Source: Moniliella sp. 'wahieum' (taxonomy: Eukaryota). From it: a DNA stretch of 64,000 nt. The first letter of the stretch is position 1. Each line of letters starts with the position of its first letter. Under the pieces are notes generated by a model. That model did not search any database. It was not told where the DNA came from and saw only the letters and a list, made by a program, of their open reading frames with translations. Where the stretch lies: NCBI GenBank assembly GCA_003971905.1, contig RSEE01000107.1:124001-188000 (forward strand). The letters run 5' to 3'. Below are positions 502-62,742 of this stretch, in pieces. Made by a program: the position numbers and the translations under genes.

Positions 502-2522
502 CTAGCCACAACGACTAAGTGACTCGGGACTAGTGACTCTGGAGGTTGGCTTTTGGAGAAGGGGGATGGACGATTGGTGATTGGTGACAGGTGATTGGCG
601 ATCCTTACCCAGTTCGTCTGACGTCCAACAACGCATCAGAAAGGCCCAAGGGGAAACAAAGAGCAAAAAACGGGTTTGGCTTCCGCCTTGCACGCTGGTT
701 GCTCTCCTCTTGTCCTGGGTTGGTAAGTTGAGCATGCAACAAATGTGGTTCGGCCACGGTGCATGCGGAACAGACGGATGGAGAGGGTACAAGCGAACAA
801 GGAAGACTACGCAAGACACAGAGAGATGGAGTTGGAGTTGCAATGCAAATACAGAAGATACAGATACAGATACACATCCAGGTCGGATCAGAATACTGGA
901 GAAAACAAAACGATGCCAAACGAGAGAAAAAGGGAACAAAGGGTCAGTTCAGTCCGTCCTTCGTGTCAACGATGCTCATGAATCGCATCGCTGCTCGCCG
1001 TCAAGGGAAGGCTCAGATGGTGGTGCATAGTAGAGCAGGCTCATAGTATGCCGTGGTCAAGCCACGTGCTCACAGCTCATAAAGGGATAGAATCATCTCC
1101 GCCAGACACTTGTATCAAGCACACACATACCATACTGGACAACAAAACAAAAAGAGCCAAGTCAGCAAATGTGCAATAAGGCAGACGTTTGGTCTGGAGC
1201 CTAGAGGGGGGGGGAAGGGTCATAAGTTTTTTTGGTATTTTGGGTGTCTTCACTGATCCTTCAGTAGCAGAACTGGATGATTCGAATCATACCCATGTGC
1301 GAGGTGCAGCGACTTACCATAACGAAAGGGGAAGAAACCAGGGCCCAAGGAAACCGGGCCAACGACCCGAGGGTCGAGCGTGGTCAGGCCAGGTTGCGTG
1401 TGGTGGTGTGTACCAACCCCCACGAGCTGGTTGGAGCTTCTGAAAAGCAAAAAAAAAAATAGCGCGGTGGAGGTCGGGCGGAACGGGAGCAACGTCTCTT
1501 ATGTTCCGCCAACGTGTGATCACTCGTGTCACATGTCACATGTCACACGTGATCACCTGGAAGAAACGGCGGGGGATTGTGGGGCCGGTGAGGCCGGTGA
1601 GAAGATGCATGCCTGATTTGTTGTGTCAATGAGCAAGCTGGTGGAGGACGGGCGAGCGACTAGAATACTGCGGTAACTTCGATAACCGGAATAACGATAC
1701 CCAGGTTGCAAAGAGATACAGACAAGAATGAAGTCGATGATCGATGAAGCTAGTAGGAGAAAAGACGAACCGAGACGCACAGACTGCTCGGTGCTGGGCT
1801 CTCGCACTCTCTACCTCTGCCCGCAGGATAGAGAGGAGCGAGGGCGGACAGCGACGCTCCCAAGCCGGCAAGGGGGTGCTGCTTCTCCCGAGAAAGAAGC
1901 AAGCGAAAGAAACCTACTCCCCACCGCCTTGAGAGCGTGAGGGCCTCAGTCGAAAGCGAATGTTGGGCTGGCAGTGTGGCGGCGAGCGTGTGTGCAGGAT
2001 GGGTGATGGTGGGGATGGGTGATCGGGTGCCGGATCTCCGTGTCGGATGAGCAGGTGATTAATGATTAAGCGGAAGCATGAAGCATGAAATCATCGATCA
2101 CCAATATGCAAACCCTCCCCAAACACACTGGCCTTTTGCTGCGGCACGAGTCACATGTCCACCCGTGGGTTACGCATCACTGCCGCCTCGCTCCTCGCCA
2201 GTGCCTCGCCCCTTCCTCCGCCTTCACGCGTCGCTGGCTCCGCGCCAGCAGTCACCCTTTGCTGCGTCAACCAGTCGATCGCTGGGCCACGTGCGGGGGT
2301 GCGGAAACGGCGATGGCGGTGGCGGTGGCGGTGGCGGGGGTGGCGGTTGGCGGTGTAGTGACAGCGGCAGTGACAGTCGCGGTGACGGTGATTCGTCGGC
2401 TGGGCCCGGACGCAGGGAAGACGGAGCGGCGATCATATTCATAAGTCAAAAGTGGTGCATGATGCCGCTTCCTCCGCTTCCTGCCTCGTCGTCTCTGCCT
2501 CCCCAACTCCGTCGCAGCCGCG

Positions 2523-4817
2523 ATGGCTGAGCGCGCCACAGACAGCTCCGCCACGGGCCTCGCTCCCTCCGCACGTCTCGACGCCAACAGCTCCAGCGCG
2601 GACGCGCTCCTGCTCGTCGTTTGCCTGCCCCAACTTCGGCAAGGCGTCAGGCGAGACGACCTGCTGCGCCGCCACCTCGTCCGCGAGCAGCGCGCTGCGG
2701 TCGCTCCCCGTCTGCCTCGCCAAAAGTCGTGCAACAGTGCTCGCGCTCCAAGGCACGCTGCGACCTCGACTTGCCCTGCAGCCGCTGCCGCAAGAAGAAC
2801 AAGCAATGCGTCGTCCTCCCCCCTCCCATGCAAGCACCCTGACCGACTGTCTGCCTCTGCGCACAGTGTACCCGCGCAACTCCATGGGCGCCACCCATGC
2901 CGACGCGTTGGTCGGTAGAAGCCGGGGCAGCATGACGCCTGCCTCGGTCCCTGCCCCCGCTCCCGCACGCGCCCCGTCTGCTCGCACCAACGATAGTGAC
3001 GACGCCCACTCCCACACCTTCTCCTCCCCCCCAACCCCCAGCACCCCCCTGCCCCTTCCCAACCTCAGCCTCAGCCTCCACCCCAACCCCAACCCCAACC
3101 CCACTCCTGGATCGATCCTACCCACTATATGCGTGGAACGCCCCCCCAAACCATCATTGGGACCATCCGCCACTCACGCGCCGGATGACAGACAGCCCCC
3201 CCGCCACCTCGCGCATGGCCATCGCCAGCACACACCGCATCCCATGCAACCCATGCATCCCATGCATATCAGGCCCAACGGGGAAAACGCCCAAGAGGAT
3301 TCGCTCATTGCGGCTTCGCAGATGCTCTCTCCTTCCCAGATGGTTGTCCTCCCGCCCCTCGATGCGCTGCTCCTTCCTCTGGACGTCCCCATCCAGTCCG
3401 CACCGGATCTGGCTCCGCCCCCAAACTTGCCCCCATCGTCACGGGCTCGGGCGCGTTGCCCCCGACCGGTTTAACGCCGGGCCCTCTTTCTGCACGAAGC
3501 ACGGCGCTGCAGGTGCCAAACACGTTTGATTCTACCCAAGCCTGGCTTGCCGAACCTGTAGTCCCCTCGCCCATCCAGGGCATCGGACCCTTTTCAGCCC
3601 TTCGTGAATCGCTCGGTGCCGCATTCACGTTTCCCATTCCATCGGCCTTGGAACGCACCTTGGACCCTCTTCCCGGTACCGACCAAACTACGGAACCTGC
3701 CCACCTCTCTCCCCCGCGTGCGACCGAGAACACGACCGCCCCCAACCTAGGTGTTACCTCCACCGTCGCTCCCACCCCGGCGGTGGAGCCTGCCCAGGAC
3801 ACCTATCCTGTGGGAGAGGTGGACGACCCGCAATCCCAGACGGCCGCTGTTACACGGCACATCTGGCAATATGGAATCCAAGATGTGCGGGAGCTACCTG
3901 AGAATTTGGCGCGTGCGGCTGCCGCCCAACTGATCACCTATCCCACCCTGATGGTCTTGCCCGAACCCACCTCGCCCGTACCGCCATTTGTCTTTCGTCC
4001 CTGGCTCGCGCGCGTGCGTGTTGATCTTCCTGCCAGCCTGGCCATTGCGCGCAGCGTTCTGGCTGGCTACCTGGTACGCTTGCCCGCTAGCTTGTCTACT
4101 GTATGGGTGAGTATTGCTCGGGAATTGCATCGTCTTATTCGCTCGGCGCCCCAAACGGCCACTGGGAACGACCTGAACCTATTTGCTTCCACCTCCGCCT
4201 TGTGGCTCTACCTCGTGCTAGCGCTCCTGACCGAAGAGCCTGTGGCCGCCGAGTCGATCGATGACCAGGCGGTCAACTCGGGCCTGCATGCGCTCTCCAC
4301 CCTCGCTTCTTCCCTCTCGGTCCGTGTGCAGGACATGGACCAGGCCAACTACGGCGCGCGTGGCACCGGTCTAGGCACGGCCCAAGCAACAATGAGTTTT
4401 GATCGCTGGGGGTTGGTCGAATCGATGCGTCGGGTACTGTTTGCATCCTACTCTCTGCTCGTTCTGCAACGCTTGCGCGAAGGCGTCGAAGGGCTGCAGG
4501 GGACACTGGCAGGATCAGAACTGGTGATGGACGTGGCACTGCCAGCGGACGATTTGACATTCAACGCGACCACTGAAGCCGAGTGGATGCGGGCCTCTGT
4601 CGCGGCGCGGACACGCACGTCTCAAGCGCTCGTCGCACTGGGCGAACCAGTGCAAACGGCAGATCGGTTGCCCACCCTGCGCGACCTACTACGCGCACGC
4701 GCGTACACAACCAAGGGCGCTCCCTTAATGGACGTGTTTGCCCACGCAGACGAATTCACCAACGTCATTCTTGCCGTCGCGCTGGGCCTGGACGGCCTAG
4801 CGCAAGTACCCTGCTAA
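2523..4817 (+). CDS. Zn(II)2Cys6 fungal transcription factor (frameshifted in the assembly)
   Basis: Joining two frames at ~2733 gives RQKSC-x-QCSRSKARCDLDLPCSRCRKKNKQC, a C-x2-C-x6-C-x5-C-x2-C-x6-C cluster. The C-terminal ORF 3456-4817 has middle-homology-like motifs (VPPFVFRPW, WGLVESMRRVLF, LPADDLTFNATTEAEW). Confidence 0.85.
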
Positions 4818-4831
4818 CCCCACCTCCTCCG

Positions 4832-4903
4832 CTCGCGTCTCGCGTCTCGCGTCTCGCCTCTCGCCTCTCGGCCCTTGGCTCTCCGCTCTCCGCTCTCCGC
4901 TCT

Positions 4904-4987
<84 letters not shown>
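4832..4987 (+). repeat. Heptamer microsatellite, (CTCGCGT/CTCGCCT)n followed by (GCTCTCC)n
   Basis: Directly visible just after the TF stop codon. Confidence 0.95.
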
Positions 4988-6206
4988 GCCTTTCTTGAGA
5001 CTGTACTTGATATCCGTTTTTGTTTTTACTTTCTTGTACTCATCTTTTGGGTCTCGGGTCTGGCTCCCCACCTCTTCGCGTATCATTCCTTTCCCTTCCC
5101 TCCCTGATTGCCTGTGCTACACGTTGTCTCTGTTTGGTATGGATCCGTCCTGACCAGCAGCCCCGTCCATTTCATAGACGTGTGTTCACCGGTTGCTCGA
5201 CCTAGGCTCGATTGGATACGTACGGCGACATGGTCAAGCACGGCGGGGGAGGCAGCGACGATTTGAAGCGCACAGAGTTGCGAGGGTTGTTGGCCAGCAC
5301 AGGCTGAGCTCGGAGTTTGTTGAACTCAACTCAACGTTGAACATTAAGGGTTCAAGTCTGCGCGGTGCAAACATGTGCCTTCCAAGCGAAGGTCGTCAAG
5401 TGATCGGATGAGGTATTAGTTCGAAACCATTTGCGATGAGCATACGTGCCCATGTCAGTCTACACGAGGCCGCAAACCGAAAGTTATTGCCTTGTCCAAA
5501 GCAAAGAGTGGACAGTAGTTCGCCCGCCTAGTCAGTCAGACCGGAGCCGAGCCGGACTGTCGCCTGGTGCCTCCCTCAGAACGAGAATTGGACCCTTGTG
5601 CGCATGCCTAGTTAGTCATTCTGTAGCCGAGCCCGCACCGCTACCTGGTATAGTAGCCGCCGCCACAATGACCGCAAACGTTACGCCAGTCTCGCATTGT
5701 TTTTTCCTCGTCCCAATAATGCACAATACCCTCCACCAAAATCCCCTGGCCCAAATGGCATGGATCTTCAGCCAGTTTATTCGGGTTTCTGTGTCGTGTA
5801 CCAAGTTCTGTCGCTTCAGTCTACATGCCTATATAGTACTCTTAGTTCGGAGAAGAGAAGGGTGCGTTCACACTCAAAGGAAAGGAGAGAGGGATTGGAG
5901 AACAGGGGGGTTCACAGGGTTCAGAACAGCGCACAGGCTTAAAGGTAGAAGCGGAAGTGGTGGGATTGTTGGATGAAAGGCAGGGGAAAAAAATGACATG
6001 CACATTCCTCGATCGCATGTGGGAGCGACACAAAGCAGAATGAGGCCTGAGGGACGGGGGGGATGTGTTTCACAGGTGAAAAGAACCGTGTTAATCATAC
6101 TTAGTATGGAGCCCCCAGACGAATGGGTAGCCACGCAGACCAGTGGGGGCAAAAGTGATAAACCACAGAGAGGGGTGTGCTTAGATGGGCACCATGGCGG
6201 GGAGCA

Positions 6207-9378: not shown

Positions 9379-11437
9379 CTACGGTGTTTGACTCAGAGGC
9401 GCCCTCGGCAGCACATGACATTCAGCCAGTCAAGCTTCCCTCGCCATGATCGCCATGATCCTATTCTGTATGGCGCGGGGGACAACTGAGGGTAGTTGGA
9501 ATCTCTCTGTACAGAGGCGGCACGCTAAAGGTGGCGATATTGATCCGGCATGTAAGCCAGGACGCGCAGTGCAACTAGGACCCCTTTGGCTTGCGTATCG
9601 GACAAACAAATAGGAGAGTTCCGCTGGTGCGGGCGCGGTGAGCGCTTTGGGAGCACAATTTGGCCACAGAAGCGCAGTGCCCACGGCGTCCCATCTTCTT
9701 GCCTTTGCGGCGCTCCAGGGGTAGACTTATGCTTTGTGAACATTGTCCGGGTATGGAGGCGACTGGCCCAGCCGGCAGTGGATGTCACGGCCAGTTACAA
9801 CAACTATTTCGAAACGCGTCAGGGTTCGTGGCTCTCGGAGCACCGTACATGCCAGTTCATAGTCGTCCACCGATATATCTCTTGGGCAACTAACCCCCTG
9901 CCGCCTTCAGGTTGTTTTCCTAATGTCACGATCTCCAAAGATGCCATCTGGGACAGTTCCGGTCCTTCGCAGTGCACTTGTCCATCACTTCCTCGCGATG
10001 AACCTACACAATCGATCGACTTTTTGACCCCGTCCGTCGATCGTCCTGCACCTTCAGGTGACCTTCCCTTGGCCAAGTACCCTGCTGGCTACCGTGCGTT
10101 TCCATCAATTGATGGAAGGTTGACCTGCTTCAACCATTAAATTCGTCGCTAGGGTCCTCACTCTCTCCCCATCCTTCCCATCCTACAAAAGGTGAGAGGG
10201 AAGAGGACGTTCCCACTCTCTTCCCAGCCGCAAGCATTCCACCAACACCAGTCTCAGCCTTGGAGCCGCAATGGCACTAGGCTTCTGTTGCAAAGCTTCG
10301 ACCCGACAACACACGGTCTCAGCAGCAAGCGACGACGCAAAGAGAGGAAAGAAGATACTTGGGTAAGAGAAGTATAAGAGGGAGACAAGTGGTCACTGTT
10401 ACACTGTTACAAGGAAGAAAGTTAGTTCGAGTACGTCCCCGCCAGTGCCGGTGACATGTGACATGTCCATTCAACAACAACCATGCATCACCACTTGAGC
10501 ACGCAGGGGGTCTCCTGTCCTGCGTTTCTCCTGTCGCCAGATGCAAATCGATAATATACTTTCAGCCTCCTCTCGAGCAGCCGAAGAACCAGCGCTGCTC
10601 GAGAGCGAATGGGCCTCGTTGGGACGCGATGGTACATGTCAGATACAGGAGGCTGCCGTCGGGGCTTGCTCGCGCTGGTGGGGGTAGGGGGAGGGTGGCA
10701 GAAGATGAATGGAATGGCTAGGCGGGCTACAGGCGTGGTCGCTGTCCGATCTTGGCATCTCAGAGTATACATCTCAGAGATTAGGATTATCAATGCCGAT
10801 TATGGCCTCCTGTCCTGACGCTCCGACAAGCTCACGCTTTGACATTCGACCCTGCCTGCGTCCTGCTGCGTCTGGTCCCCCCGGGCCAACCTAAACCTAC
10901 GGCGCCAGCAGCGACGGGCGGGGTGCGCCAGGACGACGGGCAGGCGGGCCGTGTGGGGCAGGACAGGCCGAGGGCGCGGCGCATGCGACTGTCCCCGTGG
11001 TCGCGGTGTTGGCGGTCCCAGCGGGTGCTTCGCGCTGGCGCCGGCGGGGCTGCGAGTGGCTAAATGCTAACGCCTGCGCACGGAGGCTATGCCTTTCCGG
11101 CCGCACGTGAATAGCAAGGGAACCGAGAGTAGACTAGGAAATGCAGAATGGATGACGGGTGGCGGGTGCGTAAACCATCCCAACGTGGGCTAGGGTTGGC
11201 GCTTGTCCCCCAGCCACTGCCCTGTGCGCTCGCTGACCGTCTGGGACCTGTGCTGTGCTATAACATGTAGCAACAGCACCTTTCCTCTGGCCAAGTATGG
11301 GCCGTCGCGTGCTGCTGGCCACGCTCTGGTACCCGCCTCCCCCTCCGACCGGTTCCAAGTCTTTAAAATGCCCCGCCCACCTCCATCGGGATCTCCCCAT
11401 CCCCCCCCCATACCTTGCCCCCCCTCGCCTGTGCACC

Positions 11438-12388: not shown

Positions 12389-12603
12389 GTCTTGTAATAC
12401 GGGCTGGTCCTGGGGCCTGGGGCTTGGGGCCTGGGCCTGATACCCCCCTCATTTCAGCCTCTTCCATCCCCCCATTCTCTCTCTGCCCCATTGTTAAGTC
12501 CCTTTTTGTGCTTCGTTCTGTGTAAGCAATCCTTCATGCGTACCTCTGTGTGGGCACGCCGGCTGTAGACCCGAGTCGAAATAGATCCTTTTAGAGCCAA
12601 TTC

Positions 12604-13649: not shown

Positions 13650-14403
13650 GGCGGGAGAAGCAGGGTGGTGGCGGGGGGTGGTCAGGGCGCCTCGACGCGT
13701 GGGGGTGGGCTGAGATGTTTGGGCGAGGCATGATGATCGATGAGCCTCACGCGTTCACGTGCTCACGTGACCCCACGCAAGCGGTACTGACCCACACCGC
13801 TGAGAGCACGTGACGACCACGCCAGGGCGGGTGCGTAGGCTGGGTGGGGCAGCAAGAGGTGCTGAAGCGCAGGCAGGCGGAGGGACGAAGGCACAACAGC
13901 GGGCTCAGAGCAGGCAGAGACATCCTCTCGCCGCTTCTTGCAGGACGAAGGATACAGAGGAGCATGGCTGGCCTGGCACGTGCCGACCTGAAGATGAGCT
14001 TGCGACACGTATATATCATTCAGGGGAGAGCATGCTACTAGCTTGCCTGGGAAAGAGCGCGGTGGCGTAAACGACCGTCAGGGGCCAGAAGTAAAGTCGT
14101 CGGTGCTCTCCTGGCGAGGATCTGGGACGGGGTCGGATTGCGACCGCAGGGCTGCGACCGATTGAGTGCCTGCTGCGGCGGCTGCTTTGGCGGGGGAAGG
14201 GGAAGCGGCGGTGTAAGCGAGGCGGCCAGTGACTAGTCACGTGCAGCATGCAGCATGCAAAGGCGGGCTGGGCGCTAGGGTTGCCTGGTGCGCCGCTGTT
14301 GGAGCTTAGAGTGTCTTTTGTGGCCGGCGAAGCAACGCAGCCCCGATCGACGACCGTCCTCCAGCCGCCGCCCGCGCCACCCCCACCCCCACCAGCCCAG
14401 CCG

Positions 14404-30060: not shown

Positions 30061-30110
30061 TCAAGCTTCAAGCTTCAAGCTTCAAGCTTCAAGCTTCAAG
30101 CTTCAAGCTT
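30061..30110 (+). repeat. (TCAAGCT)7 perfect heptamer array (AAGCTT palindrome + C)
   Basis: Seven tandem copies are visible. Confidence 0.97.
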
Positions 30111-42234: not shown

Positions 42235-42812
42235 CGTGCCAAAATCAAAGGTGTCCACGACACGAGCAAAGCCAGCACGGTGGAGTTCCAACAACAACGG
42301 CCGCCAGAGCGAGCGAGCAAGCCAGCGAGAGGGTGGATGGTGGATGGGCTGCCGGCCAGATGGCGCTCGTAATCGTAATCGATAATCGACGTAATCGTAA
42401 TCGCGGACTGGGCAACGCCACTGCGCGCTTACTTCAGCACCCGACGTCGTACTCCTCGACGCGGAATTGAATTGTTCAGGAGCTGTTATCACCACTGTTA
42501 CTTGGCCCCTCGCGATTAAAATTGGTGCCAACGATCTTGTGAGATCTGAGATCTGGCTCGATTTCAGAGTGCGGCGACTGCATCCCCGAAGCTGGGACCG
42601 AATTGGCTGAGGCGACGCTCAGCTGGAACCGCAACAGCAACACAAGACGCCACTAAGCGCCCGATAGGTACCTGAGACGTTCTCCTATTCTCTTTGGTTC
42701 TCTTTTTGGTATTGCTCGCTTACCACCTTCTCAACCACTGCTCTTGAGCTTGAAGCTCAAAGCTTGACCAGCTTAGCTTCTTCGTTGTTTGGAAACCATC
42801 CTCGGCACCACC

Positions 42813-43548: not shown

Positions 43549-44945
43549 GGTGGTGTAGGGCGCGGGGGGGGGGGGGGGAGCAGAGCGGGTTCCTGTCCCG
43601 CTTTCTTTTGTCGTGCGAGTGAAGGTGCTTATCCTGCAAAGAGCAGGAGTGTGAACATGGGTTGTTACGACGTATGGTCGATGATATATGATGCAGGATG
43701 CGGAAGGCGCGAAGAGAGAGGTATAGGCACGTGAAGGAGGTGGCAAAGTAAAGAGAGAACGCCGACCTGAGCGCTGAGCCTGAGCAGAGAAGGGCAACCG
43801 TTACTCAGTTTCGTCAATGACGTTCAAGATTACCACTTGGTACACCCCACATTTTTCACGTGTAGGAACAAAGTTGTCTGTGGCGACGGTGCTCTCTGTT
43901 TCGGTAGCGATGTATCATGAACCACTCGGGGCCCGACAGACGTGATGATATGTGACAGCCTACTGTATTTATCTGGAGCCGTCCCCACGGCTCTCCTTCA
44001 TGATGCTTGCACTCCTACTAGAGCCATCGATTCTCGGGTACCCTGATCAGACCTACTCACCCGACTGACATCGTTGCGGCTAGTATAATGTTGCCCCACC
44101 ACGCCTTAGCCACCCCTTCGCCCTGAGGTAGGCTTAACCAACCGAATCTCCGTTTTCCCACCGAGAGGGGATGTATATCGAGAGAAAGGTAAGCCAGATA
44201 CCGTCTCATCTTCTTTGCACTGTCCCCCCCCCCTCGCTCTCCAAGGGCAGGCCCAGATCATGCACATTGGCATTGGGTTCTCGGTGTTTCCTTCCGCTTG
44301 GGGAGAAGGAGGATCCACAAGCGAGCGAAAAGTGGTTGGGATGAACGATGATTGCATCACATCCATAGATGTTTTTCTTCTCTAGTGTGCCGGACCAGCA
44401 GTTGATACGACCGTCACGCACATTCCCCTGGGCACACTTGACTCCCTCTCTGCGTCATATATCTGTCGGCGTATGCACTTGCTCTGCATCTGTTCTGTGG
44501 TCTTCCTTCCAGTCCTCGTATAGAGCAAACGTCCGCTATATACAAAATGAAATAGGGGCACAGGGAGGCTGGGTAGTGAAGCTTGAAGGAGATACGCGGT
44601 GCCGAAATGATTAATGATACTTGAAGCTTGACAATCGACACAATTCCGCCTCCCTCGGCCTCCTCATCGATCGTCCGCCAGATCTAGTAAGAAGACTTCA
44701 ATAAGCTTCAAGCTTTAAGGGCTTCAAAACAGCCCTCAGGCTCCGCCATCTGCTCCACCTGGAGAGCAGCCGGATGGACCGACATGATATTGAACTCCTG
44801 GGATCCTGAGAGCCACAGGTCTCAGGCTGAGCGCTAAGGCTAAGGGCTAGGCCGGTTCAGGGGACTCACTGATACGTCCACACATCATCACACGCATCGT
44901 CAACGACCGTTTTGATTCGGGCTCAGAGAACGGTAGGTAAGACCT

Positions 44946-45508
44946 GGTATGATCAGTACAAGAGAACCCCGGCCTACGGCCCGGTCAGCTGGGCTTCGCC
45001 CGAGCTGCCGTTCCCCCTTCGCCACCGTAGCCACCGTTCCACCGTCGCCAACACCGACATAGGAATAAATCACCGATTCGTTCTGGCTGCAGGGGGTGGA
45101 ACGTGGCACGGGGCAGCTGATGTAAAAAGTGCACAGGGCGAATGGAGGAATAATATACCCGGGGACGCACTCAAGAGCCGTTTTTCCCCTGGTTTGACGA
45201 CGCGACGATACTACGGCACCAAGACGGCGGGCAAGTGTTCGCGCATTGGAAGGAGTTGGCTACTAAGTCTCAGTGGAAATGGTTCCTCGCTCGGATGTCA
45301 ACCACGTTCATCCGTGTCCACACGCGCTTCCTAGGGTACGGGACCGGATGGCGTGAGCGGAGGGTCCTGATATCCTGGCGATCCCCTGGTTCCTTGACTT
45401 AGTGGCGCTTCCAAGTAACCCCCGCAAGATGACCGGTTAGGTTTAGACGTAGCGTTCCCCCTGTCCCAGCCTTAAGCTCTGTCAATGAAATGGACGTGAC
45501 TTAGGGAT
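44946..45508 (+). repeat. Dispersed repeat, copy 1 (probable DNA transposon remnant)
   Basis: Aligns by eye over its whole length to the reverse complement of 60403-61005, with substitutions and small indels. Confidence 0.9.
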
Positions 45509-50949: not shown

Positions 50950-53552
50950 TGGGTCTAGCTCTGCACCGCGCGGGCGAAGCTCGGGTGGGAATCTTCCAAC
51001 GTCGGAATCGACCACGGCATGAGAGCCCCCCAAGGTCCGGTTCTTCCCTGGACAACCGTTGGGCTTGAGCATGAGTCAGTCCTCTCTTCCTTGACCCTGG
51101 GCTTCGACTATGTCAAGGTTCAACGTCCTATGCCAACACAGGAGATGAACATCACTATCATCATAAGAAGGGATCAGACCGAGAGCTCATGCAGCCATAG
51201 GTGTATAATCAGGATGCAGGCACTCCCAGAGAGGTGGAAAGGCCACCTATGGACGCTGCGCAATCGGACGCAGCAGATGAAGGGGTCTATATCAAGATTG
51301 GGCGCGATGAGTACAATCAAGTCTCGTAGTACAAGGGGTATACAATCTCTTGGAGGCCCTACGGTCGACTCACCGTAAATTCGCTTGGATTGGTTAGTGG
51401 ATCGGATGCGGGGGGGGGGGGTATATAAAGACAATGAGTGCCCTCTCGGAGTATATAGCAGAGACAGCTGTAATGAATGTGGCGAGGCTTCTTCTGCACC
51501 GCAGCTTAGGCAGTATAGACTTGACGTATCTGAGGCCTCCAGGGCTTTTATCTGAGACGGTAAAGTGCACTGCCATCCAGAGCTTCAATACTGGACCGGG
51601 ACGGGCTTCGGCGTGGTTGGAAGGGGACTCTGCGTCCGGAGATAACAGGAGCGCCCTGTACCCTTGTCCTCTATCCTGCTCTTTATTTCTCTCTCTTTCC
51701 TACACGCAGAAACCAGTCAGACGTTACACGTGTGTTACTCCGGATTTGAACTGCATCCGTTCATGTTAACACGTTCACCTGGCATCAGCCCGGGTGGTTC
51801 GGGGAAAAGCCGATTAGAAAGTGGTAGAGCTGTGCCGGGCTATAGACATCTACTAATATGGGACCGTGACGAACTACAAAGAGGTTATATCCTCCGCGGT
51901 GAAGATATGACTTGTCAAAGATCTGTCGATACGGGTTGATCGACATCGTGTATATCTCGATCCTGTGCGCGCTGCTCCCTGACGCATCGCGTGATATCTG
52001 TGCCTCTGAGATCTGAGATCTGAGATCTGAGATACGAGAAAAGGCGCGCACCAGGGGCTGCAGCTCCGCGGTGGTGGTGGTGTGGACCCACCGAATCATA
52101 CTGTTCATGTTGTATCGAGGGTTATTGTTAGCGGCAGTAACCGGTAACTTCCATCAGGTTCTAGCAACCGGTTTTGCCGATACTATATGGCCCGAGCTAC
52201 GCTCCCTTGGCGTCGCATTAGATTTGTGCCACAAACGTACAAATGTCCCGTCACGCGTCACGCGTCACGCGTCCATGCACACATGTCACTTGCACACGTC
52301 ACGTCGCGTGCACCCCGCGCCGGCCACCTTGGCCACCCATTGTGCGGGCCCTGTGGGAACCACCGTCCTACGTCACGCGTCAGTACTCAGTACTGTACTC
52401 GGTAGTCAGTACGAGCACCTGGACTTTCGACCCCACAGCACGCGAGGCAGGTCACCGGTCAGGCCTCAGGCCGGGCCCTACTCCGAGCACACCGGAACCT
52501 CATCCGTGCAGGCCCGCCCACGCTCTCTTCTGCCCCCGTCCGCGTCATCCACACACATGTCCCTATCACCACCATACCTCACTCAGTACTCATCCCACTG
52601 TGCCTCACGCCGCACGCAGTGGCTCCGAACGCCCCACGTGCAGCTATTACTCGTGGCGCCCACAGCGCCTTCTCTCTGCACCGGGCCATCCTCGTCTTTT
52701 TCCGCCTCACGGCTGGAGCCCCCTTCTGCTGCCCCCCCTGCACACTCACACCCCACGTGGCGCTCGCGCCTGGGTGTGGTATCCTGTTGTTACTGGCGTG
52801 GCAATGCCGTGCCAACCCTTGACACAGATGTAAAGGGTGCCTAGGCCAAGAAAAGTACGGGCAAGAATAACGCTAGCCATAGCAGCAGCTATCCGCTACG
52901 AGATCGTAACTAATGTGTTGCGTATCTTCATTTGGTTCCTTTCCTCTTCACGGTACGTTCTGAACGCTTCTACCCGAACCCACTTGCAGGTGGAGACGCA
53001 CCACTGGGTAAGTAAGGCCCGTGGGCCCACGTGGGGTGTCGGCAGTGTCGCCTCATTTCACAAGAAGGTTGTCAAACACAACCGGGAGACTATGACCGCA
53101 ACCCCAACGGCGTGAAGGGCAGGATCCTTCCGATGCGCATTCCCATCCTCCTTCATCTCTGTCTCGATTTGCTGAATATACAACCAGGTGGAGAAGCTGT
53201 CTAACGGACTTTGAAACCAGTGGGGCATTTGACTGGATGCCATCCCTGAGACTCCGATGCAACTGTCTCGTCGCAGCGCCTGTGATACTAACCCTTCGAA
53301 CACATATGGTGGCCTGGCACGATATGCAATACCAATCTATCCAAACACCAGATCTCCTTGGTTTAATTATAGGATTAGCCATTATTATTGGATAGTTCCC
53401 CATTGGCAAGAATAAACGTGTACGCAACAGGAGCAGTCATAGTCCTCGATGTCGACAGTGCCATCGGGAGACATTGATGTCGGGGTACCCGGGGACATCT
53501 ATGCTATCGTTGGAGACCTATTACCCCTATGGTATCACCCACGTCAATGACA

Positions 53553-53625: not shown

Positions 53626-54894
53626 CTTTGGTAGTGCTGTCATCGCCGACATATTTGACGTGAACCCTATCATTGATAGGGCGTAACCCTTTGATGTTTT
53701 CCCCTTCCCTGATGTCTTTGATACCCTGAGCGAGTCTCGTATCCATGTCGCCAATGACATCCATTTCGTATCTGACATCATGGACATCACTACCGTCCCC
53801 GTCTTCGAGAACAGCTGCGTTATTTACTTGATGTCTATGACATCAAAGTAAAGGTCCTCAAACTATGACAGTCATGATCGTCATGATAGTCATGGATGTC
53901 AGAAAGGGGTCGGTAGTGTAGCTTGAAGCTTGGCTAGCTTTATGTAGAGCTTAGTACCCACGACGGGCGCCTTTTTTTTAACTCTTGGCGCGTATTACAG
54001 TGCCTCAAACAAACCCGGAAATGGGTTTCTCAGCCGCCGCCTTGTTCAGCCTCGGCGTCTCAGTGCCCAGCCTGAGCGCCCTGAGTCCCGGGTCCTGAGC
54101 GCTAAGCGCTGAGGCTGAGACTCCTCAGCGCTCAGTTTTTGAATTTACCACGACACGGACCATGGTCCGGAGTCTCTCGGGGAACAGCTCGGCAACCGGG
54201 AACCAGTATTCACGCTGAAATGACGACCTGTGCCCGCCCCTAGCGTCAAAAGCCTCTTTAATTAGTACTTAGTGCTCAATTTTCAAGCGTTTTCAAGCTT
54301 CCAGCTAGCTAGCTTCAAGCTTCACCTTCAAGCTTCGCAGCTTCAAGCTTCAAGCTTCACCACAGTATAGTACATGTCATACTTAGTCACCCTGTCACCT
54401 GGTCACCACGAGTTCATCCCAAACACGGGGCGCAGCATTTCGACGAATAGTACTCTCTATCTTTCTTCCCGTCCATGTCCAGTCCCGAGGCCCAGGGCTC
54501 TTTCAGTTCCAGATGAGGCCCTGAGACTGATCTGAGGTAACCGTCACTCTGCCTGCCTGCTCTGCCATGGTAGGTCCAATAGTGGCGATAATCGATAATC
54601 GATAATCGATAATGAGGGATAGTAGTCAATGACCCGATGATCGATGACCGATGACCTCTTTATGACCGCGCCGTAAGGGAGCCGGTGTGACTTGTCTGTG
54701 ATATGCGTGGCGGTCCGGTTTGTAGGTGTCGGGTCTGCTATATCCCCCCCCGCATCTCCGGCTATCTGTTACTGCCACCGCCCCTCATCTGCTCAACCTC
54801 TTTATTGTTCTTCTGTTAATCCTGAGAAGACCTCATCTGCATCCCTCTCGCCACCACAACCACCTCTGCATGTACCCCGTTCTTGGCAGTGGCC

Positions 54895-57461: not shown

Positions 57462-57888
57462 CGTGGCTCTAGGCCGTCGGCCTTCGCCTGACGCCCGTAC
57501 AACCGCGCAATGATACAAGAACGCGCAAAAGCGAGTGGCAGGTTGGGACACAGAATAATAGACAGAAAAGGCTGAATATACTGAGCAGAGGAAGGTGCAG
57601 TAAGGCTGGGATGGAGCACAATGCCCGTTGGATTTCCCCGTGTGTTGGTCGACAACACTACCGTTGGATTGCCACAAAAAGCAGGCCCAGTGACTAGTGA
57701 CACCTCTCAAGCACGTTGTCGCGTTCCATGTTACTGACTAGAACATTTGGCGCACAAAAGGGGGAGGGGATAGCATGTGATATTGCACAAACACTTTTCG
57801 TCTGTCGAGGCTGAGCCACTCTTTGGGAAAGGAGCCGGGGAGGGGAGGAGGGGCAAAGGAAAGGGCAGTGGTGGGCACAATTTAATAC

Positions 57889-59546: not shown

Positions 59547-60402
59547 GGCGGGCAGAGGCGGGAAGGGGGGAGGGTGGGGGTGGTGGTGGTGGTGGTGGCA
59601 GAGCAGAAGAAGGCGGAGCGCGTTGTGCGAACCATGAGGGCTGAGGTGAATGGGGCGGCTGGGGCGGCATGGAGCTCAGGGGCGTCGGCGTCATACTGAT
59701 TGCGGGTGCGGCGGAGGGGTGGATGCACGGCATAATGGGTCTGACAGGTGTCTGACAAGTGACTGCTGATGCATGATGCTTGTTGCCGCGCCCCGGAGTT
59801 GGCGGCTGCGCGGAGGCTCTGCTGCGCCGCTGTGCCCCTGGCAGGCGGCACAGGGGCCGTGCGGGCACAACTACCCCCGGCACCACGGCGCCACTCAGTA
59901 CTCACGCGTCACGCGTCACGAGTCACTAATTAATCGTCCTGGTCGCCGTCCCTGCCGCCTCCCCCAGCTCCCCCCAGCTCGCCTTGTCCAGGCGCGCGCC
60001 CCTCCCTTCGTACATCCGCGCTCCGCTCCGCTCAGCCGGCCGCAGTCGTTGGCGCGGCTCGCCGTCGCACAGCAGAAACTGGCCACTCCAGCCCTCCGCA
60101 TCTTCGTCTCCGCCATGAACCAAGTTTCGTGTGGGCCCGCCCACTCGACAGAAAAAAGGCATGCTGTCCGGCGCACAGGAGAGCCCATCAAGCGCAATGT
60201 GCGTACACAGCGCGCCCCTGCTTTCTTAGTTTGCTTTTGGTATGTACTTAGCAGTAAATGTGGTGTAGTTGTGGAACCCCACACGTCATCCCACGTGCCC
60301 CCCGTTCGCCAATCGCGATCTGTAGTACCATAATAGTGGCCAGTCATAGTGCGTGAAACAGATGGTCAGGCTGTTCGGATCCATACACTCACCCTACCCA
60401 GA

Positions 60403-61580
60403 ATCCCTAGATCACATCCATTTCATTGACAGAGCTTAAGGCTGGGACAGGGGGAACGCTACGTCTAAACCTAACCGTTCATCTTGCGGGGGTTACTTGG
60501 AAGCGCCACTAAGGTCAAGGAACCAGGGGATCGCCAGGATATCAGGACCCTCCGGCTCACGCCATCCGGTCCCGTACCCTAGGAAGCGCGTGTGGACACG
60601 GAGGAACGTGGTTGACATCCGAGCGAGGAACCATTTCCACTGAGACTTATTAGTAGCCAAATCCTTCCAATGCGCAAACAACTTGCCCGCTGTATTGTGT
60701 CGTAGTATCCTCGCGTCGTCAAAACCAGGGGAAAACGGCTCTTGAGTGCGTCCATGGTACTTGGCGTTCTTGTCTATATTATCCCTAGATTCGCCCTGTG
60801 CACTTTTTACATCAGCTGCCCCGTGCCACCTTCCACGCCCCCTGCAGCCAGCAAGCATCGGTGATATTATTTCTCTATGTCGGTGTTGACGACGGTGGAA
60901 CGGTGGCTACGGTGGCGAAGGGGGAACGGTGGCTAATATGGCGACGCAGCACGCTCCAGCTGACCGGGCCATAGGCCCGGTGGTCCTCCTTGTGGCCTAT
61001 ACCCTTTCAGGGCAATTGCACGCCCAGGCATTTTCCGCCGGGTACAAGATTCCCGCCTAATGTCACAACACAGGTATCGGTTATTGTGCAGTCAAACCTA
61101 TATGGGGTTAGATGAACTCTCCTCTTCGACAAAAACCCCTGGGGCACATGACTTAGCTACGCTCAAGAGCACACCACGTGTGCATTCCACGGTCTACCTG
61201 CATATGGTATGATGTACGAGACTGTCCCCTGGAGACATCAATAAACGACGATACAGAAGCTTGAATCTGTGCCTTCCCTCCTCGGTGTTATCGGTAATAA
61301 TAGTGTCAGTCACCTCTCAGATCTCAGCCTCGACAGGCAAAGTTGTCTTCGTCATCTGTCTTCCATCAGGCCACACCGTTACAGTTTGGAAGGGGGTGCT
61401 TGACGGACATTGACTTGTCGCGAGGGACGAGTTGAAAGAGCAATTTGCGCGGGTCCGGGCTCTATAGAAAAAAGTTTATAATAGTTGGCGCGTATAAGCA
61501 ACACACCCGGATGAACGGGTCGGTTTAGGTGCAGCACTTCGTGGTCCCAGCTTAAGCTTTGTCAATGATATATGTGGTTA
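60403..61580. mobile_element. Non-autonomous TIR-bounded element (~1.2 kb) containing repeat copy 2
   Basis: 60423-60448 TCATTGACAGAGCTTAAGGCTGGGAC matches the reverse complement of 61544-61568 (TCATTGACAAAGCTTAAGCTGGGAC). An inner block 60465-60483 matches rc 61510-61528 at 17/19. No TSD or transposase recognised. Confidence 0.65.
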
Positions 61581-62742
61581 CAGAATAAAAGGCCCACATA
61601 TGGATGGACGAAGAGGGTTAAACGTTAAACGTTAAATGATTGCTCTCGCGGCGTGGCATAGCCCATCCATTGACAAAATGCGTCACAGCAGGAGTCATCT
61701 TGAGTCCAACCGTTGATCTTCCATCCTATCGGCCCCGAAAAGGAACTCGCTCTTACGCTCCTCCCGCGTGGAACCTCGAGGCCATGGCCAGCCGTCTCTG
61801 TTGCTCTCTCGCTCTCCGTCGCGGCGGTCTACAGATGAAAAGGTCAGTGATACTATCATCGCCGTGCCGTCGAGTTTGGGAGCATATCAATGGTAATGCA
61901 TAATGGTCCAAGCAGTCCCAGTGTGCGAAGTGAGCTTCCAGTCCGCCAGCCACTCAGCAACCAGCCTTCGACATCATATTCATCATGGTGCCCAAACACC
62001 CCCCAACGCGAACGCGCTGGCCGGGTTGCTGTTGGGACACTAGTGCGGGTGTGTCAAGGGCATAGCCGGACTCGCGCTCCCAGCCCCTTCCATCCATCGG
62101 CCAGCTCCGCTAGTTCCGCGCGGGCGGAAGTGTGGCTGTCCGACATGCCTCCTTCTACAAGCCTGGCAGTCGTAGCTCACAGTCTTCTCTCTCTTCCACT
62201 CCCTCCTCCTCCTCCCTCTCCGCTACTCTCTACTATCGCTCACACAAGCAATCAATCCCTCTCTCGTCTATTGAATATTGTGACCCCCCAGTTCTTGCTT
62301 GCTGTCTCGCTTGGCATCGGGATCCGGTCACATCACTGTGTTAGAGGGGAGTGCTAGGGTTCTCCTGCGCGGCCCTCAATGGATCGGTGACGCTCGCAGG
62401 CCGCGCACGCCCTGCGCGCTCCCTCCCTTCTCTCTCTCCTTTCTCCTTCCCATCAGACGTTGCTTGAAGACTTGTGGCTCACCACTTTGCCTTCACGCCT
62501 TGTCTGAAGGCTGCTTTGCAGCTGATCCATAGGATCGCGAGTGCTCCCAAGTCGCACTCTAGCACACTGCTCCATATTTCAACAGCAACAACCAAAGGGT
62601 GACCGGTGACTGGTGATGCCCAGTGCGTGGCTGCGACCAGCGGTGATGCAGGTGATGCTTAGGTCATCCCCGCACCCGCGTATAGGTAGGTCCACCCACG
62701 ATCCACTGAGCCAGTCCCATTGCCGAGTCCAACCACCGCCGC

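What the first reader, a model, noticed from the sequence alone, without database searches (positions are those of the whole stretch)
572..62618. Window-wide family of period-7 tandem arrays, many built from an A....T hexamer palindrome plus one spacer base
Seen: non-coding DNA repeatedly carries 2-7+ copy arrays of unit length 7 but different sequence. Palindrome+1 units: AAGCTT+C/G (30061-30110, 35806-35840, 54340-54358), AGATCT+G (36182-36202, 52005-52032), AGATCT+A (41043-41067), AACGTT+C/G/A (19469-19505, 36053-36073, 61617-61637), ACGCGT+C (52249-52272, 59902-59926), AGTACT+C/T (52381-52394, 42092-42112), ATCGAT+A/C (54586-54613, 40662-40680), ACATGT+C/G (1527-1547, 10451-10467), ATGCAT+G (~35739-35768) and ACCGGT+G (62598-62618). 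Non-palindromic 7-mers also occur (572-599, 4832-4987, 12410-12437, 38388-38447, 40317-40352, 40959-40989, 42183-42213). Coding repeats instead have periods 6, 9 or 12. Established: heptamers are normally a rare SSR class, and palindrome+1 is the same geometry as hairpin-forming CNG repeats. Inference: the conserved length with free sequence suggests a mechanism that makes 7-bp duplications (7-nt staggered cuts and fill-in, iterated transposon footprints, or hairpin-assisted slippage), or selection for phased dyad binding sites.
Basis: partly seen in the sequence, partly recalled or inferred. Interest (0 to 1): 0.8.

Follow-up and report, generated by a model that had tools for sequence, protein, structure and literature searches.

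The report
Stereotyped 7-base scars at TNA sites
The non-coding DNA of this smut-related fungus is peppered with one very regular 7-base insertion at T-any-A sites, part direct and part mirror-image copy of the neighbouring bases, which most likely is the scar of a jumping gene cutting itself out again and again, and which builds the unusual 7-base repeats.

Summary
Exact period-7 arrays of 2 or more copies number 61, against 3.4 in shuffles. Of these, 28 have a 6-nt palindrome plus one base as unit, and 27 of the 28 are A....T.

The underlying rule is TNA + 4-nt palindrome + the same TNA: 82 such 10-mers against 2.2 expected. ANT, CNG and GNC cores sit at chance. In 869 kb from 80 other fungal loci the rate is 4.3 per 64 kb.

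The unit is not a plain 7-bp duplication. TNAxy becomes TNAxy-y'x'-TNAxy, five bases copied directly and two inverted. Fifty of 58 chains mirror a flank, and in 5 of 5 mixed chains each palindrome mirrors its own flank.

The product is stereotyped, uses all 16 palindromes and lies mostly outside ORFs.

Best reading (0.55): repeated insertion and excision of a cut-and-paste element with a 7-bp, TNA-centred target duplication and hairpinned flanks. No element or transposase lies in the window.

Non-rule heptamers look like ordinary repeats.

The scan reached the same reading in five other stretches of this genome. A published remark on U. maydis '10-bp repeats' as TE footprints may describe the same thing, but I could not check it.

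The parts
1529..1545 (.). TCA catg TCA catg TCA, 2 links
   Evidence: both flanks mirror
1738..1747 (.). TGA tcga TGA
   Evidence: left flank mirrors
2056..2065 (.). TGA ttaa TGA
   Evidence: right flank mirrors
2091..2100 (.). TCA tcga TCA
   Evidence: no flank mirrors
5331..5340 (.). TCA acgt TGA (N differs)
   Evidence: right flank mirrors
6041..6050 (.). TGA ggcc TGA; 12-nt unit TGAGG cc TGAGG
   Evidence: right flank mirrors
10452..10461 (.). TGA catg TGA
   Evidence: right flank mirrors
13734..13743 (.). TGA tcga TGA
   Evidence: left flank mirrors
14230..14239 (.). TGA ctag TCA (N differs)
   Evidence: left flank mirrors
18880..18889 (.). TGA tgca TGA
   Evidence: right flank mirrors
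19475..19501 (.). two TCA acgt TCA units (19475-19484, 19492-19501) in one degenerate array
22012..22021 (.). TAA tgca TGA (N differs)
   Evidence: no flank mirrors; may be chance
27273..27282 (.). TGA tcga TGA
   Evidence: left flank mirrors
27805..27814 (.). TCA tgca TAA (N differs)
   Evidence: left flank mirrors
29478..29487 (.). TCA agct TCA
   Evidence: right flank mirrors; lies in the last codons of the GH5 ORF
29892..29901 (.). TCA tcga TCA; 12-nt unit
   Evidence: right flank mirrors
30061..30105 (.). (TCA agct) x6 + TCA, the longest rule array (7.3 copies)
30174..30183 (.). TGA tcga TGA
   Evidence: no flank mirrors
30263..30272 (.). TCA agct TCA
   Evidence: no flank mirrors
35697..36330 (.). 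densest cluster, upstream of the DSS1/SEM1 gene, with 11 chains: 35697, 35738, 35757, 35774, 35807 (2 links), 35828, 35926 (mixed: TAA tgca TCA atat TCA), 36054 (2), 36184 (2), 36252, 36314 (mixed: TGA catg TGA ggcc TGA)
37335..37344 (.). TGA ttaa TGA
   Evidence: left flank mirrors
40310..40319 (.). TGA ggcc TCA (N differs), abutting the (TCATCCA)5.3 array
40662..40678 (.). TCA tcga TCA tcga TCA
   Evidence: right flank mirrors
41046..41062 (.). TAA gatc TAA gatc TAA
   Evidence: both flanks mirror
41220..41243 (.). TGA agct TGA (41220) and TTA atat TTA (41234), adjacent 12-nt units
42092..42108 (.). TTA gtac TTA gtac TTA
   Evidence: right flank mirrors
42376..42385 (.). TAA tcga TAA
42540..42549 (.). 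TGA gatc TGA
43682..45439 (.). intergenic stretch with 8 single units: 43682, 43768, 44577, 44608, 44622, 44708, 44828, 45430 (the last three with differing N)
52007..52030 (.). (TGA gatc) x3 + TGA
   Evidence: both flanks mirror
52138..52147 (.). TAA ccgg TAA
   Evidence: no flank mirrors
52251..52267 (.). TCA cgcg TCA cgcg TCA
   Evidence: both flanks mirror
52373..52389 (.). mixed chain cg TCA cgcg TCA gtac TCA gt
   Evidence: left palindrome mirrors the left flank, right palindrome the right flank
52452..52468 (.). mixed chain gg TCA ccgg TCA ggcc TCA gg
52583..52592 (.). TCA gtac TCA
54096..54134 (.). TGA gcgc TAA gcgc TGA and TCA gcgc TCA
   Evidence: no flank mirrors
54262..54271 (.). 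TTA gtac TTA
54315..54359 (.). TCA agct TCA (54315) and TCA agct TCA agct TCA (54343)
54589..54612 (.). (TAA tcga) x3 + TAA
54638..54647 (.). TGA tcga TGA, followed by the direct repeat (CGATGAC)2.1
57691..57700 (.). TGA ctag TGA
59767..59776 (.). TGA tgca TGA, upstream of pyruvate kinase
59895..59918 (.). mixed chain ac TCA gtac TCA cgcg TCA cgcg TCA cg, upstream of pyruvate kinase
61317..61326 (.). TCA gatc TCA
61619..61635 (.). TAA acgt TAA acgt TAA
61894..61903 (.). TAA tgca TAA
62600..62609 (.). TGA ccgg TGA
40317..40353 (.). (TCATCCA)5.3: TNA-centred direct 7-bp repeat, filler = right flank + left flank, not palindromic
4832..4987 (.). non-rule heptamer arrays (CTCGCGT)3.7, (TCTCGCC)2.7, (GCTCTCC)~16; no TNA; read as ordinary microsatellites
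38389..38482 (.). non-rule heptamer array (AGCACCA)~13; no TNA
40959..40990 (.). non-rule heptamer array (CAACGAG)4.6; no TNA, no hairpin
42183..42213 (.). non-rule heptamer array (CATTGGA)4.4; no TNA, no hairpin
572..602 (.). non-rule heptamer array (GATTGGT)4.4, imperfect
12409..12439 (.). non-rule heptamer array (CCTGGGG)4.6, imperfect

Best explanation
The palindrome+1 heptamers are excision scars of a cut-and-paste DNA element.

Shown from the sequence: at a site pq-TNA-xy exactly 7 nt are added, giving either pq-TNA-xy.y'x'-TNA-xy or pq-TNA-q'p'.pq-TNA-xy. TNA and two flanking bases are duplicated directly, and those two bases are also copied in inverted form. Repeats of the event at the same or the new TNA build the period-7 arrays.

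Inferred mechanism, in five steps:
1. The element inserts with a 7-bp target duplication centred on TNA.
2. On excision both flanks are sealed as hairpins exactly at the element boundary, as hAT, Transib, MULE and RAG do.
3. A host nuclease opens each hairpin 2 nt from the tip, leaving 4-nt self-complementary 3' overhangs, xyy'x' on the left and q'p'pq on the right.
4. The two overhangs are ligated in register although they are mismatched.
5. Replication or mismatch repair leaves one palindrome or the other.

This always adds 7 bp. It explains why the length is fixed while the sequence is free. It also explains why the hexamer reads A....T: the A and T belong to the two TNA copies.

The element itself was not found in this window. 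It may lie elsewhere in the genome or be extinct.
For: Specificity:
- TNA-pal4-TNA with the same N: 82 against 2.2 expected. ANT, CNG and GNC cores are at chance (2 v 2.3, 7 v 7.8, 7 v 7.8).
- 80 other fungal loci (869 kb): 4.3 per 64 kb, with pal4 in 58 of 794 TNA-4-TNA 10-mers, about 1/16.

Flank copying:
- 50 of 58 same-N chains have at least one flank mirrored, where chance is about 1/16 per flank.
- The 41 single units split right 20, left 13, both 2, none 6.
- 12-nt units W5 + rc(last or first 2) + W5 occur at 24 loci against about 4.4 expected. Twenty of the 24 have W = TNAxy or y'x'TNA.
- In 5 of 5 mixed chains the left palindrome mirrors the left flank and the right palindrome the right flank. 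This requires at least two independent events at one original pqTNAxy site and excludes pure slippage.

Stereotypy:
- The 134 TNA-4-TNA 10-mers split into 76 palindromic and flank-mirrored (0.25 expected), 5 direct, 2 with one inverted base, and 30 unexplained (28.6 expected by chance).
- TNATNA 34 v 35.4, TNA-pal2-TNA 6 v 7.9, TNA-pal4-pal4-TNA 1 v 0.13.

Sequence-agnostic:
- All 16 palindromes are used, and usage does not differ from flank dinucleotide frequencies (p = 0.08).

Location:
- 45 of 58 chains lie outside a crude ORF mask covering 49% of the window. Eight of the 13 inside lie in two doubtful ORF stretches.

Established knowledge:
- hAT, Transib, MULE and RAG form hairpins on flanking DNA. 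Host enzymes open them and NHEJ leaves footprints (PMC5499845, passages).
- P-nucleotide palindromes occur in Ac/Ds footprints in fungi (PMC5873905, passages).
- Basidiomycete DNA transposons with 7-bp target duplications exist: hAT7 in rusts and Kyakuja in Laccaria (PMC12730594, passages).
Against: - No element was found. None of 824 pairs of identical TNA-centred 7-mers encloses inverted ends. Among 82,116 TNA pairs the single hit is an array itself. The 25 longest of 50 inverted repeats are arrays or low-complexity DNA. None of 198 ORFs of 120 aa or more has a transposase family.
- The density, about one chain per kb, and the repeated hits on one site demand very many insertion-excision cycles.
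- Known footprints are heterogeneous (28 kinds in 128 Ac/Ds excisions). These are nearly uniform.
- The hAT hallmark, a palindrome centred on the complement of the element-adjacent base, is absent. N is the same in 82 of 94 pairs, and the 7 'flipped base' candidates are 6 ordinary rule scars and one non-palindromic unit.
- The 7-bp duplication is inferred from symmetry. Only 5 direct + 2 inverted bases are seen in any one event.
- Non-TNA heptamer arrays are not explained by this model.
- Only one 64-kb window was examined, and there are no population or read data.
Confidence: 0.55

Rival explanations
1. An endogenous, element-free break-and-repair process. A host nuclease or domesticated hairpin-forming transposase cuts at TNA, and a stereotyped repair route adds the 7 nt. 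This would be a lineage-specific mutational signature rather than transposon scars.
For: No element or transposase lies in the window. The product is extremely uniform. Repeated hits occur on the same sites. Density is very high.
Against: A single duplex cut cannot leave both ends carrying TNAxy. A prior duplication, which is what insertion provides, is needed to obtain direct plus inverted copies. A plain staggered cut with fill-in predicts direct 7-bp duplications, which are rare at TNA (5 of 134). No such enzyme is known; this last point is recalled, not searched.
Confidence: 0.17
2. Hairpin-assisted replication slippage. Any heptamer can expand, and palindrome+1 units expand best because slipped strands fold, like CNG repeats.
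For: Three of 4 rule arrays folded as single-stranded DNA are more stable than shuffles (z -5.2, -2.8, -2.5; the fourth is -1.2). Arrays of 3 or more copies may well grow or shrink by slippage once formed.
Against: - It cannot create the 12-nt proto-units with an inverted dinucleotide.
- It cannot create mixed chains whose palindromes mirror their own flanks (5 of 5).
- It does not explain why only the TNA core is enriched and not ANT, CNG or GNC.
- Rule arrays are not longer than others: 7 of 27 rule and 7 of 34 non-rule arrays reach 3 copies.
- The non-folding arrays (TCATCCA)5.3, (CATTGGA)4.4 and (CAACGAG)4.6 reach similar sizes.
Confidence: 0.1
3. Canonical footprints of a Tc1/mariner-like or PIF/Harbinger-like element with a 3-bp TNA duplication. 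The 4-nt palindrome would be 2 nt left behind from each inverted terminal repeat.
For: TNA resembles the 3-bp target of PIF/Harbinger; canonical Harbinger elements make 3-bp duplications (PMC12730594). Two bases from each inverted end would automatically form a palindrome.
Against: The palindrome copies the local flank in 76 of 82 cases. All 16 palindromes occur. Mixed chains match a different flank on each side. This would need 16 element families, each choosing matching flanks. TNATNA, the fill-in product, is not enriched (34 v 35.4).
Confidence: 0.04
4. Selected cis-regulatory lattices: phased dyad-symmetric protein binding sites in promoters.
For: Chains cluster in intergenic DNA next to gene starts, for example upstream of DSS1/SEM1 and pyruvate kinase.
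Against: No sequence is preferred beyond TNA. All 16 palindromes occur at about background flank frequencies. Chains lie 3' of genes as well, after GH5 and after WC-1. Selection does not explain the flank mirroring.
Confidence: 0.04
5. Assembly or base-calling artefact.
For: None positive. The reads could not be inspected.
Against: The pattern is rule-based, involves many different sequences, depends on local flanks and avoids ORFs. No known artefact behaves this way; that statement is inference.
Confidence: 0.02

Closest known systems
Excision footprints of flank-hairpin transposons (hAT such as Ac/Ds, Transib, MULE) and P nucleotides of V(D)J coding joints
   Same: The target duplication is retained at the empty site. 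Next to it stands a short inverted copy of the flank end, as expected from an opened hairpin (mechanism from PMC5499845 and PMC5873905, passages).
   Different: - The inferred duplication is 7 bp, centred on TNA. hAT makes 8 bp, MULE 8-10 bp and Transib 5 bp (recalled).
- The palindrome is even-centred and the middle base is never flipped, unlike Ac/Ds.
- The product is almost uniform, against 28 footprint kinds in 128 Ac/Ds excisions.
- No element was found in the window.
Basidiomycete DNA transposons with 7-bp target duplications: hAT7 (Pucciniales) and Kyakuja (Laccaria bicolor)
   Same: They are cut-and-paste elements of basidiomycetes that make 7-bp duplications (PMC12730594, passages). 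hAT7 belongs to a superfamily that hairpins its flanks.
   Different: Their target consensus and footprints were not visible to me. The figure is not held, and the supplement shows consensus sequences only. No homologue was found in this window.
'10-bp repeats' of Ustilago maydis, suggested to be TE footprints (Laurie et al. 2012; Schirawski et al. 2010), as cited in PMC4081816
   Same: They are numerous small intergenic repeats in a fungus of the same subphylum, interpreted as footprints of past TE activity (PMC4081816, passages). TNA+4+TNA is 10 bp long.
   Different: The sequence of those repeats is given neither in the passages read nor in the searchable supplements. The primary papers are not held. 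Identity with the present rule is therefore untested.
Canonical footprints of Tc1/mariner elements (recalled)
   Same: They are a stereotyped scar explained by ligating two short 3' overhangs across a mismatch that is later resolved either way. My model uses the same logic.
   Different: There the extra bases come from the element ends and the duplication is TA. Here they come from the local flank.
Hairpin-forming microsatellites (CNG repeats)
   Same: Rule arrays can fold into imperfect hairpins.
   Different: The units are born by a non-slippage event.

Membership tests
Flank-hairpin transposon excision footprints (hAT/Transib/MULE type) | Direct duplication of the target remains at the empty site | tested here: met
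   TNA plus two flank bases are duplicated in 76 of 82 palindromic units. 12-nt units occur at 24 loci against about 4.4 expected.
Flank-hairpin transposon excision footprints (hAT/Transib/MULE type) | Palindromic (P) nucleotides: an inverted copy of the flank end at the junction | tested here: met
   50 of 58 chains mirror a flank, and 5 of 5 mixed chains mirror both.
Flank-hairpin transposon excision footprints (hAT/Transib/MULE type) | An element with terminal repeats and a DDE transposase, flanked by the same duplication, exists in the genome | tested here: not met
   Window only: 0 of 824 candidate 7-bp pairs, and no transposase family in 198 ORFs. The rest of the genome is not held.
Flank-hairpin transposon excision footprints (hAT/Transib/MULE type) | Heterogeneous junctions (variable P length, small deletions) | tested here: not met
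   One product dominates: 76 flank-mirrored pal4, against 5 direct and 2 with one inverted base. Fillers of 0, 2 or 8 nt are at chance.
hAT superfamily specifically | 8-bp duplication, with palindromes centred on the complement of the base next to the element | tested here: not met
   The inferred duplication is 7 bp. N is unchanged in 82 of 94 pairs. The predicted flipped-base forms are not found beyond coincidence. hAT7 families with 7-bp duplications exist.
PIF/Harbinger or CACTA footprints (3-bp duplication) | A 3-bp duplication with junctions built from the TSD end or the element ends | tested here: not met
   TNATNA 34 v 35.4 and TNA-pal2-TNA 6 v 7.9. The filler copies bases beyond the TNA.
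Slippage microsatellites | Birth and growth by direct duplication of the unit | tested here: not met
   This applies to the rule class: proto-units carry an inverted dinucleotide and mixed chains exist. The feature is met for the non-rule heptamers, which follow the general decline of counts with period.
Slippage microsatellites | Copy number polymorphic between isolates | not testable with these tools
   No run was listed and no genome is held.
U. maydis '10-bp repeats' (TE footprints) | Same sequence rule | not testable with these tools
   The primary papers are not held. The citing paper gives no sequence.

The most novel reading that the evidence does not exclude
An undescribed cut-and-paste element, or a domesticated hairpin-forming transposase, has a 7-bp TNA-centred target and an almost invariant repair outcome. 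It has written about one scar per kb. That would make it the main source of new intergenic sequence, of short palindromes and of heptamer microsatellites in this branch of the Ustilaginomycotina. The scars would then be a readable, countable record of transposition history in a genome that now looks nearly free of transposons.
Probability: 0.3. Interest if true: 0.8.

Novelty: new variant of a known kind. Interest (0 to 1): 0.62.

Why it matters
If the reading is right, a large share of the non-coding DNA of this compact fungal genome was written by one enzyme-driven process, not by point mutation.

- It would explain an odd microsatellite spectrum, a heptamer peak.
- It would give a simple sequence rule for counting past transposition events in genomes that appear TE-poor.
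- It would supply promoters with a steady stream of new short palindromes.
- It offers a natural system with a nearly deterministic hairpin-opening and end-joining outcome, useful for studying DSB repair in basidiomycetes.
- It could put the old suggestion of 'TE footprints' in smut genomes on a mechanistic footing.

Tried and rejected
Data that could not be obtained:
- Whole genome: not held.
- Sequencing runs for 35001-45000: none was listed, so there was no read check and no isolate comparison.
- Orthologous loci: a metagenome scan with the WC-1 LOV exon gave 80 fungal loci, but none is close (58% identity or less). I used them only as controls. A first try with wrong coordinates failed on stop codons.

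Searches for the element in the window:
- TSD + TIR scan, inverted repeats and Pfam on 198 ORFs. Nothing was found.

Alternative junction models tested and rejected:
- Ac-like flipped bases and odd palindromic fillers.
- Fillers of 0, 2 and 8 nt.
- Non-TNA cores.
- 11-nt units, meaning 3 inverted bases at non-symmetric sites: 5 v 2.75 and 3 v 2.72.

Other checks:
- ORF 55468-57510 has no homologue at E <= 1e-10 among 8000 scored candidates. It was therefore useless for placing the organism. BRX1 served instead.

Literature (10 searches):
- No paper in the held library describes TNA-centred palindromic heptamers or a period-7 peak in Ustilaginomycotina.
- Laurie 2012 and Laurie 2013 are not held.
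- The supplements of PMC4081816 hold no mention; 4 of 15 files were not searched.
- PMC8120014 was irrelevant.

My own first guess, slippage at 50%, was dropped after the flank tests.

Full report
WHAT THE WINDOW IS

It is 64 kb of a gene-dense fungal genome with 58% G+C. Genes recognised by Pfam:
- a HAD hydrolase (11.3-12.4 kb)
- a Ski2-like helicase (14.6-18.1 kb)
- two C2H2 zinc-finger genes
- a GH5 glycosidase (27.6-29.5 kb)
- BRX1 (32.7-33.6 kb)
- DSS1/SEM1 (35.2-35.5 kb)
- Vps55 (41.5-41.9 kb)
- a white-collar-1-like gene with three PAS domains (47.8-50.9 kb)
- a protein kinase (55.0-55.9 kb)
- pyruvate kinase (57.9-59.4 kb)

The BRX1 exon is closest to Tilletiaria anomala (68% identity), then to Malassezia, Sympodiomycopsis, Jaminaea and Ceraceosorus. 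The organism is therefore a member of the Ustilaginomycotina without a close named relative in that search. No whole genome is held.

Tandem Repeats Finder lists many period-7 rows. My count of exact runs with 2 or more copies and a primitive unit, set against 30 dinucleotide-preserving shuffles:

| Period | Observed | Shuffle mean |
|---|---|---|
| 5 | 102 | 54.2 |
| 6 | 79 | 12.4 |
| 7 | 61 | 3.4 |
| 8 | 8 | 1.0 |
| 9 | 13 | 0.27 |

At 3 or more copies period 7 (14) equals period 6 (13) and dwarfs periods 5 (2) and 8 (1).

Two are weaker than stated: 35738-35768 is interrupted, and 62598 is exact for only 13 nt.

Of the 61 arrays, 28 have a 6-nt palindrome plus one base as unit, 27 A....T and one G....C. 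Only 2.0-2.7% of 7-mers do so in the A....T form.

Periods 3, 6, 9 and 12 sit mostly inside a crude ORF mask covering 49% of the window: 33 of 53, 48 of 79, 7 of 13 and 2 of 2. Period 7 does so in 16 of 61. The mask is rough. It is built from stop-to-stop ORFs scored by a self-trained codon model, and it overstates coding DNA.

THE RULE BEHIND IT

A....T plus one base, repeated, is the same as TNA plus a 4-nt palindrome.
- TNA-palindrome-TNA with the same middle base occurs 82 times, against 2.2 expected.
- The same construction on ANT, CNG or GNC cores is at chance: 2 v 2.3, 7 v 7.8, 7 v 7.8.
- The 94 10-mers with any N merge into 68 chains: 49 single, 15 double, 3 triple and one of six links. 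With the same N there are 58 chains.
- In 80 other fungal loci (869 kb, fetched with the WC-1 exon) TNA units occur 4.3 times per 64 kb, like ANT units at 4.0.
- There only 8 of 196 period-7 arrays obey the rule.
- There only 58 of 794 TNA-4-TNA 10-mers are palindromic, about 1 in 16.

The feature is therefore specific to this lineage, at least relative to those fungi.

THE ELEMENTARY EVENT

Runs with period 7 and length exactly 12 are in excess (97 v 39.2). At 24 loci they have the form W5 + reverse complement of the last or first two bases of W + W5, against about 4.4 expected. In 20 of the 24, W is TNAxy or its mirror y'x'TNA. One is shifted by a base and three lack TNA, which is about the chance number.

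So TNAxy becomes TNAxy-y'x'-TNAxy: seven bases added, five copied directly and two inverted.

- Of the 58 same-N chains, 50 have at least one flank that mirrors the adjacent half-palindrome.
- The 41 single units split right 20, left 13, both 2, none 6. This symmetry is expected if either flank can supply the inverted copy.
- In all 5 mixed chains the left palindrome mirrors the left flank and the right palindrome the right flank. An example is tg TGA catg TGA ggcc TGA gg at 36314.
- This is what two independent events at one original site tgTGAgg would give. Slippage cannot produce it.

THE PRODUCT IS STEREOTYPED

The 134 TNA-4-TNA same-N 10-mers divide as follows:

| Class | Observed | Expected |
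|---|---|---|
| Palindromic and flank-mirrored | 76 | 0.25 |
| Palindromic without flank match | 6 | 2.1 |
| Direct 7-bp duplication | 5 (three in one array) | 0.18 |
| One inverted base | 2 | 0.18 |
| Half explained | 15 | 4.1 |
| Other | 30 | 28.6 |

Other junction lengths are not enriched: TNATNA 34 v 35.4, a 2-nt palindrome 6 v 7.9, two palindromes in a row 1 v 0.13, and a 3-nt odd palindrome 10 v 9.5.

All 16 possible palindromes occur. Their usage does not differ significantly from the dinucleotides that flank ordinary TNA sites (chi-square p = 0.08). The middle base is C or G in 53 of 62 cases, against 70% in the background (p = 0.008).

WHERE THE CHAINS LIE

Forty-five of 58 chains lie outside the ORF mask. 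Of the 13 inside, six are in a weak ORF at 52.0-52.8 kb and two are in the upstream extension of the pyruvate kinase ORF.

Chains cluster at:
- 35.7-36.3 kb, upstream of DSS1/SEM1, with 11 chains
- 40.3-42.5 kb, on both sides of Vps55
- 43.7-45.4 kb
- 52.0-52.6 kb, downstream of WC-1
- 54.1-54.6 kb, upstream of the kinase
- 59.8-62.6 kb, upstream of pyruvate kinase

They therefore occur both 5' and 3' of genes.

MECHANISM

What is shown is the +7 event, its dependence on TNA, the flank mirroring, the recurrence at one site and the uniformity. The mechanism below is inferred.

An inverted copy of a flank end is the signature of a hairpin-sealed DNA end opened off-centre (P nucleotides). hAT, Transib and MULE transposases and RAG make such hairpins on the flanking DNA. 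Host enzymes open them and end joining leaves footprints (PMC5499845, passages; PMC5873905, passages).

For the left end to finish in TNAxy while the right end starts with TNAxy, the site must have been duplicated beforehand. Insertion does exactly that. Events use either flank, so the duplication must extend two bases to each side of TNA. That makes it 7 bp, centred on N.

If both hairpins are opened 2 nt from the tip, the ends carry 4-nt self-complementary 3' overhangs, xyy'x' and q'p'pq. Ligating both strands in register gives a 4-nt mismatch. Replication or repair then resolves it to one palindrome or the other. The net gain is always 7 bp, whichever flank wins.

Each event adds a new TNA in a favourable context, so arrays can grow by further events. 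Four of 17 same-N multi-link chains are mixed, plus one with a changed N. My own enumeration predicts about a quarter mixed for independent second events. Once several copies exist, slippage probably contributes too.

Basidiomycete transposons with 7-bp duplications are on record: hAT7 in rust fungi and Kyakuja in Laccaria (PMC12730594, passages). I could not see their target consensus.

WHAT SPEAKS AGAINST IT

- No element was found in the window. None of 824 pairs of identical TNA-centred 7-mers encloses inverted ends. The listed inverted repeats are arrays or low-complexity DNA. No transposase domain occurs in 198 ORFs of 120 aa or more.
- The Ac/Ds hallmark is missing. That hallmark is a palindrome centred on the complement of the base next to the element. 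Here N is unchanged in 82 of 94 pairs, and only 4 of the 12 differing pairs are complementary, which is the chance share. The seven 'flipped-base' candidates are six ordinary rule scars and one non-palindromic unit.
- Known footprints are far more varied, with 28 kinds among 128 Ac/Ds excisions in Candida.
- One chain per kb implies an enormous number of insertion-excision cycles.

These points keep an element-free, enzyme-driven process alive as a rival.

THE OTHER HEPTAMERS

Thirty-four of the 61 arrays do not obey the rule, and 29 of them contain no TNA at all. Outside the ORF mask the counts run p5 57, p6 31, non-rule p7 23, p8 6. That is a smooth decline with no peak.

Against the control fungi the window is richer in all short repeats. 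At 2 or more copies p6 is 1.9-fold, non-rule p7 2.4-fold and p8 2.2-fold higher. I therefore read these arrays as ordinary microsatellites.

(TCATCCA)5.3 at 40317 is a TNA-centred direct repeat and may be a variant product. Three non-rule arrays do not fold as single-stranded DNA yet have 4.4-5.3 copies. Three of four rule arrays do fold. Seven of 27 rule arrays and 7 of 34 non-rule arrays reach three copies. Hairpin potential is thus not what makes arrays long.

COMPARISON AND NOVELTY

The thing works like a transposon excision footprint with P nucleotides. It is not shown to be a member of any named superfamily. The inferred target length, the even-centred palindrome and the uniformity all differ from hAT, and no element is at hand.

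[quoted passage not shown] 2012 and Schirawski et al. 2010. TNA+4+TNA is 10 bp, so this may be the same thing. The primary papers are not held, and the citing paper and its searchable supplements give no sequence.

Ten full-text searches found no description of the rule, the flank mirroring or a heptamer peak in these fungi.

The scan itself reached the same reading in five other stretches of this genome. Those notes gave me the flank-mirroring lead, which I then tested here.

I rate the finding a new variant of a known kind.

LIMITS

- Only one window was examined.
- The coding mask is crude.
- There are no reads, isolates or relatives.
- The 7-bp duplication and the ligation-across-mismatch step are inferences.

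Noticed in passing
window 1217-1295 (-): Rfam match to the C/D-box snoRNA snR61/Z1/Z11 at 47.9 bits, above the gathering score of 45. It is the only Rfam hit in the window. ARAGORN found no tRNA gene.
   Followed up: no
window 47766-50946 (+): A white-collar-1-like photoreceptor gene in at least two long exons. It has a LOV-type PAS domain and two further PAS domains. The best metagenomic relatives reach only 58% identity in the LOV exon.
   Followed up: partly
window 55468-57510 (+): A 681-codon open frame just downstream of the protein kinase domain exons. It has no Pfam family and no homologue at E <= 1e-10 among the 8000 candidates scored. It may be a lineage-specific tail of the kinase, or not coding at all.
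   Followed up: partly
window 37725-37842 and 38924-38982: Long in-frame-type repeats: period 12 (GTCCCCATCCAC x9.8) and period 9 (TGGGCAGGA x6.6). They lie in or near the C2H2 zinc-finger gene region. They are a different class from the heptamers.
   Followed up: no
window 23663-23682 and 43564-43578: Homopolymer runs C20 and G15.
   Followed up: no
window 4832-4987: Three different TNA-free heptamer arrays stand back to back directly after the long ORF 3189-4814, the last with about 16 copies. It is unexplained why three different 7-mers expanded side by side.
   Followed up: partly
window 40439-40457: An 8-nt word is repeated after a 3-nt spacer (tgggccac tag tgggccac). It is one of several short non-period-7 duplications in the same intergenic stretch.
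   Followed up: no
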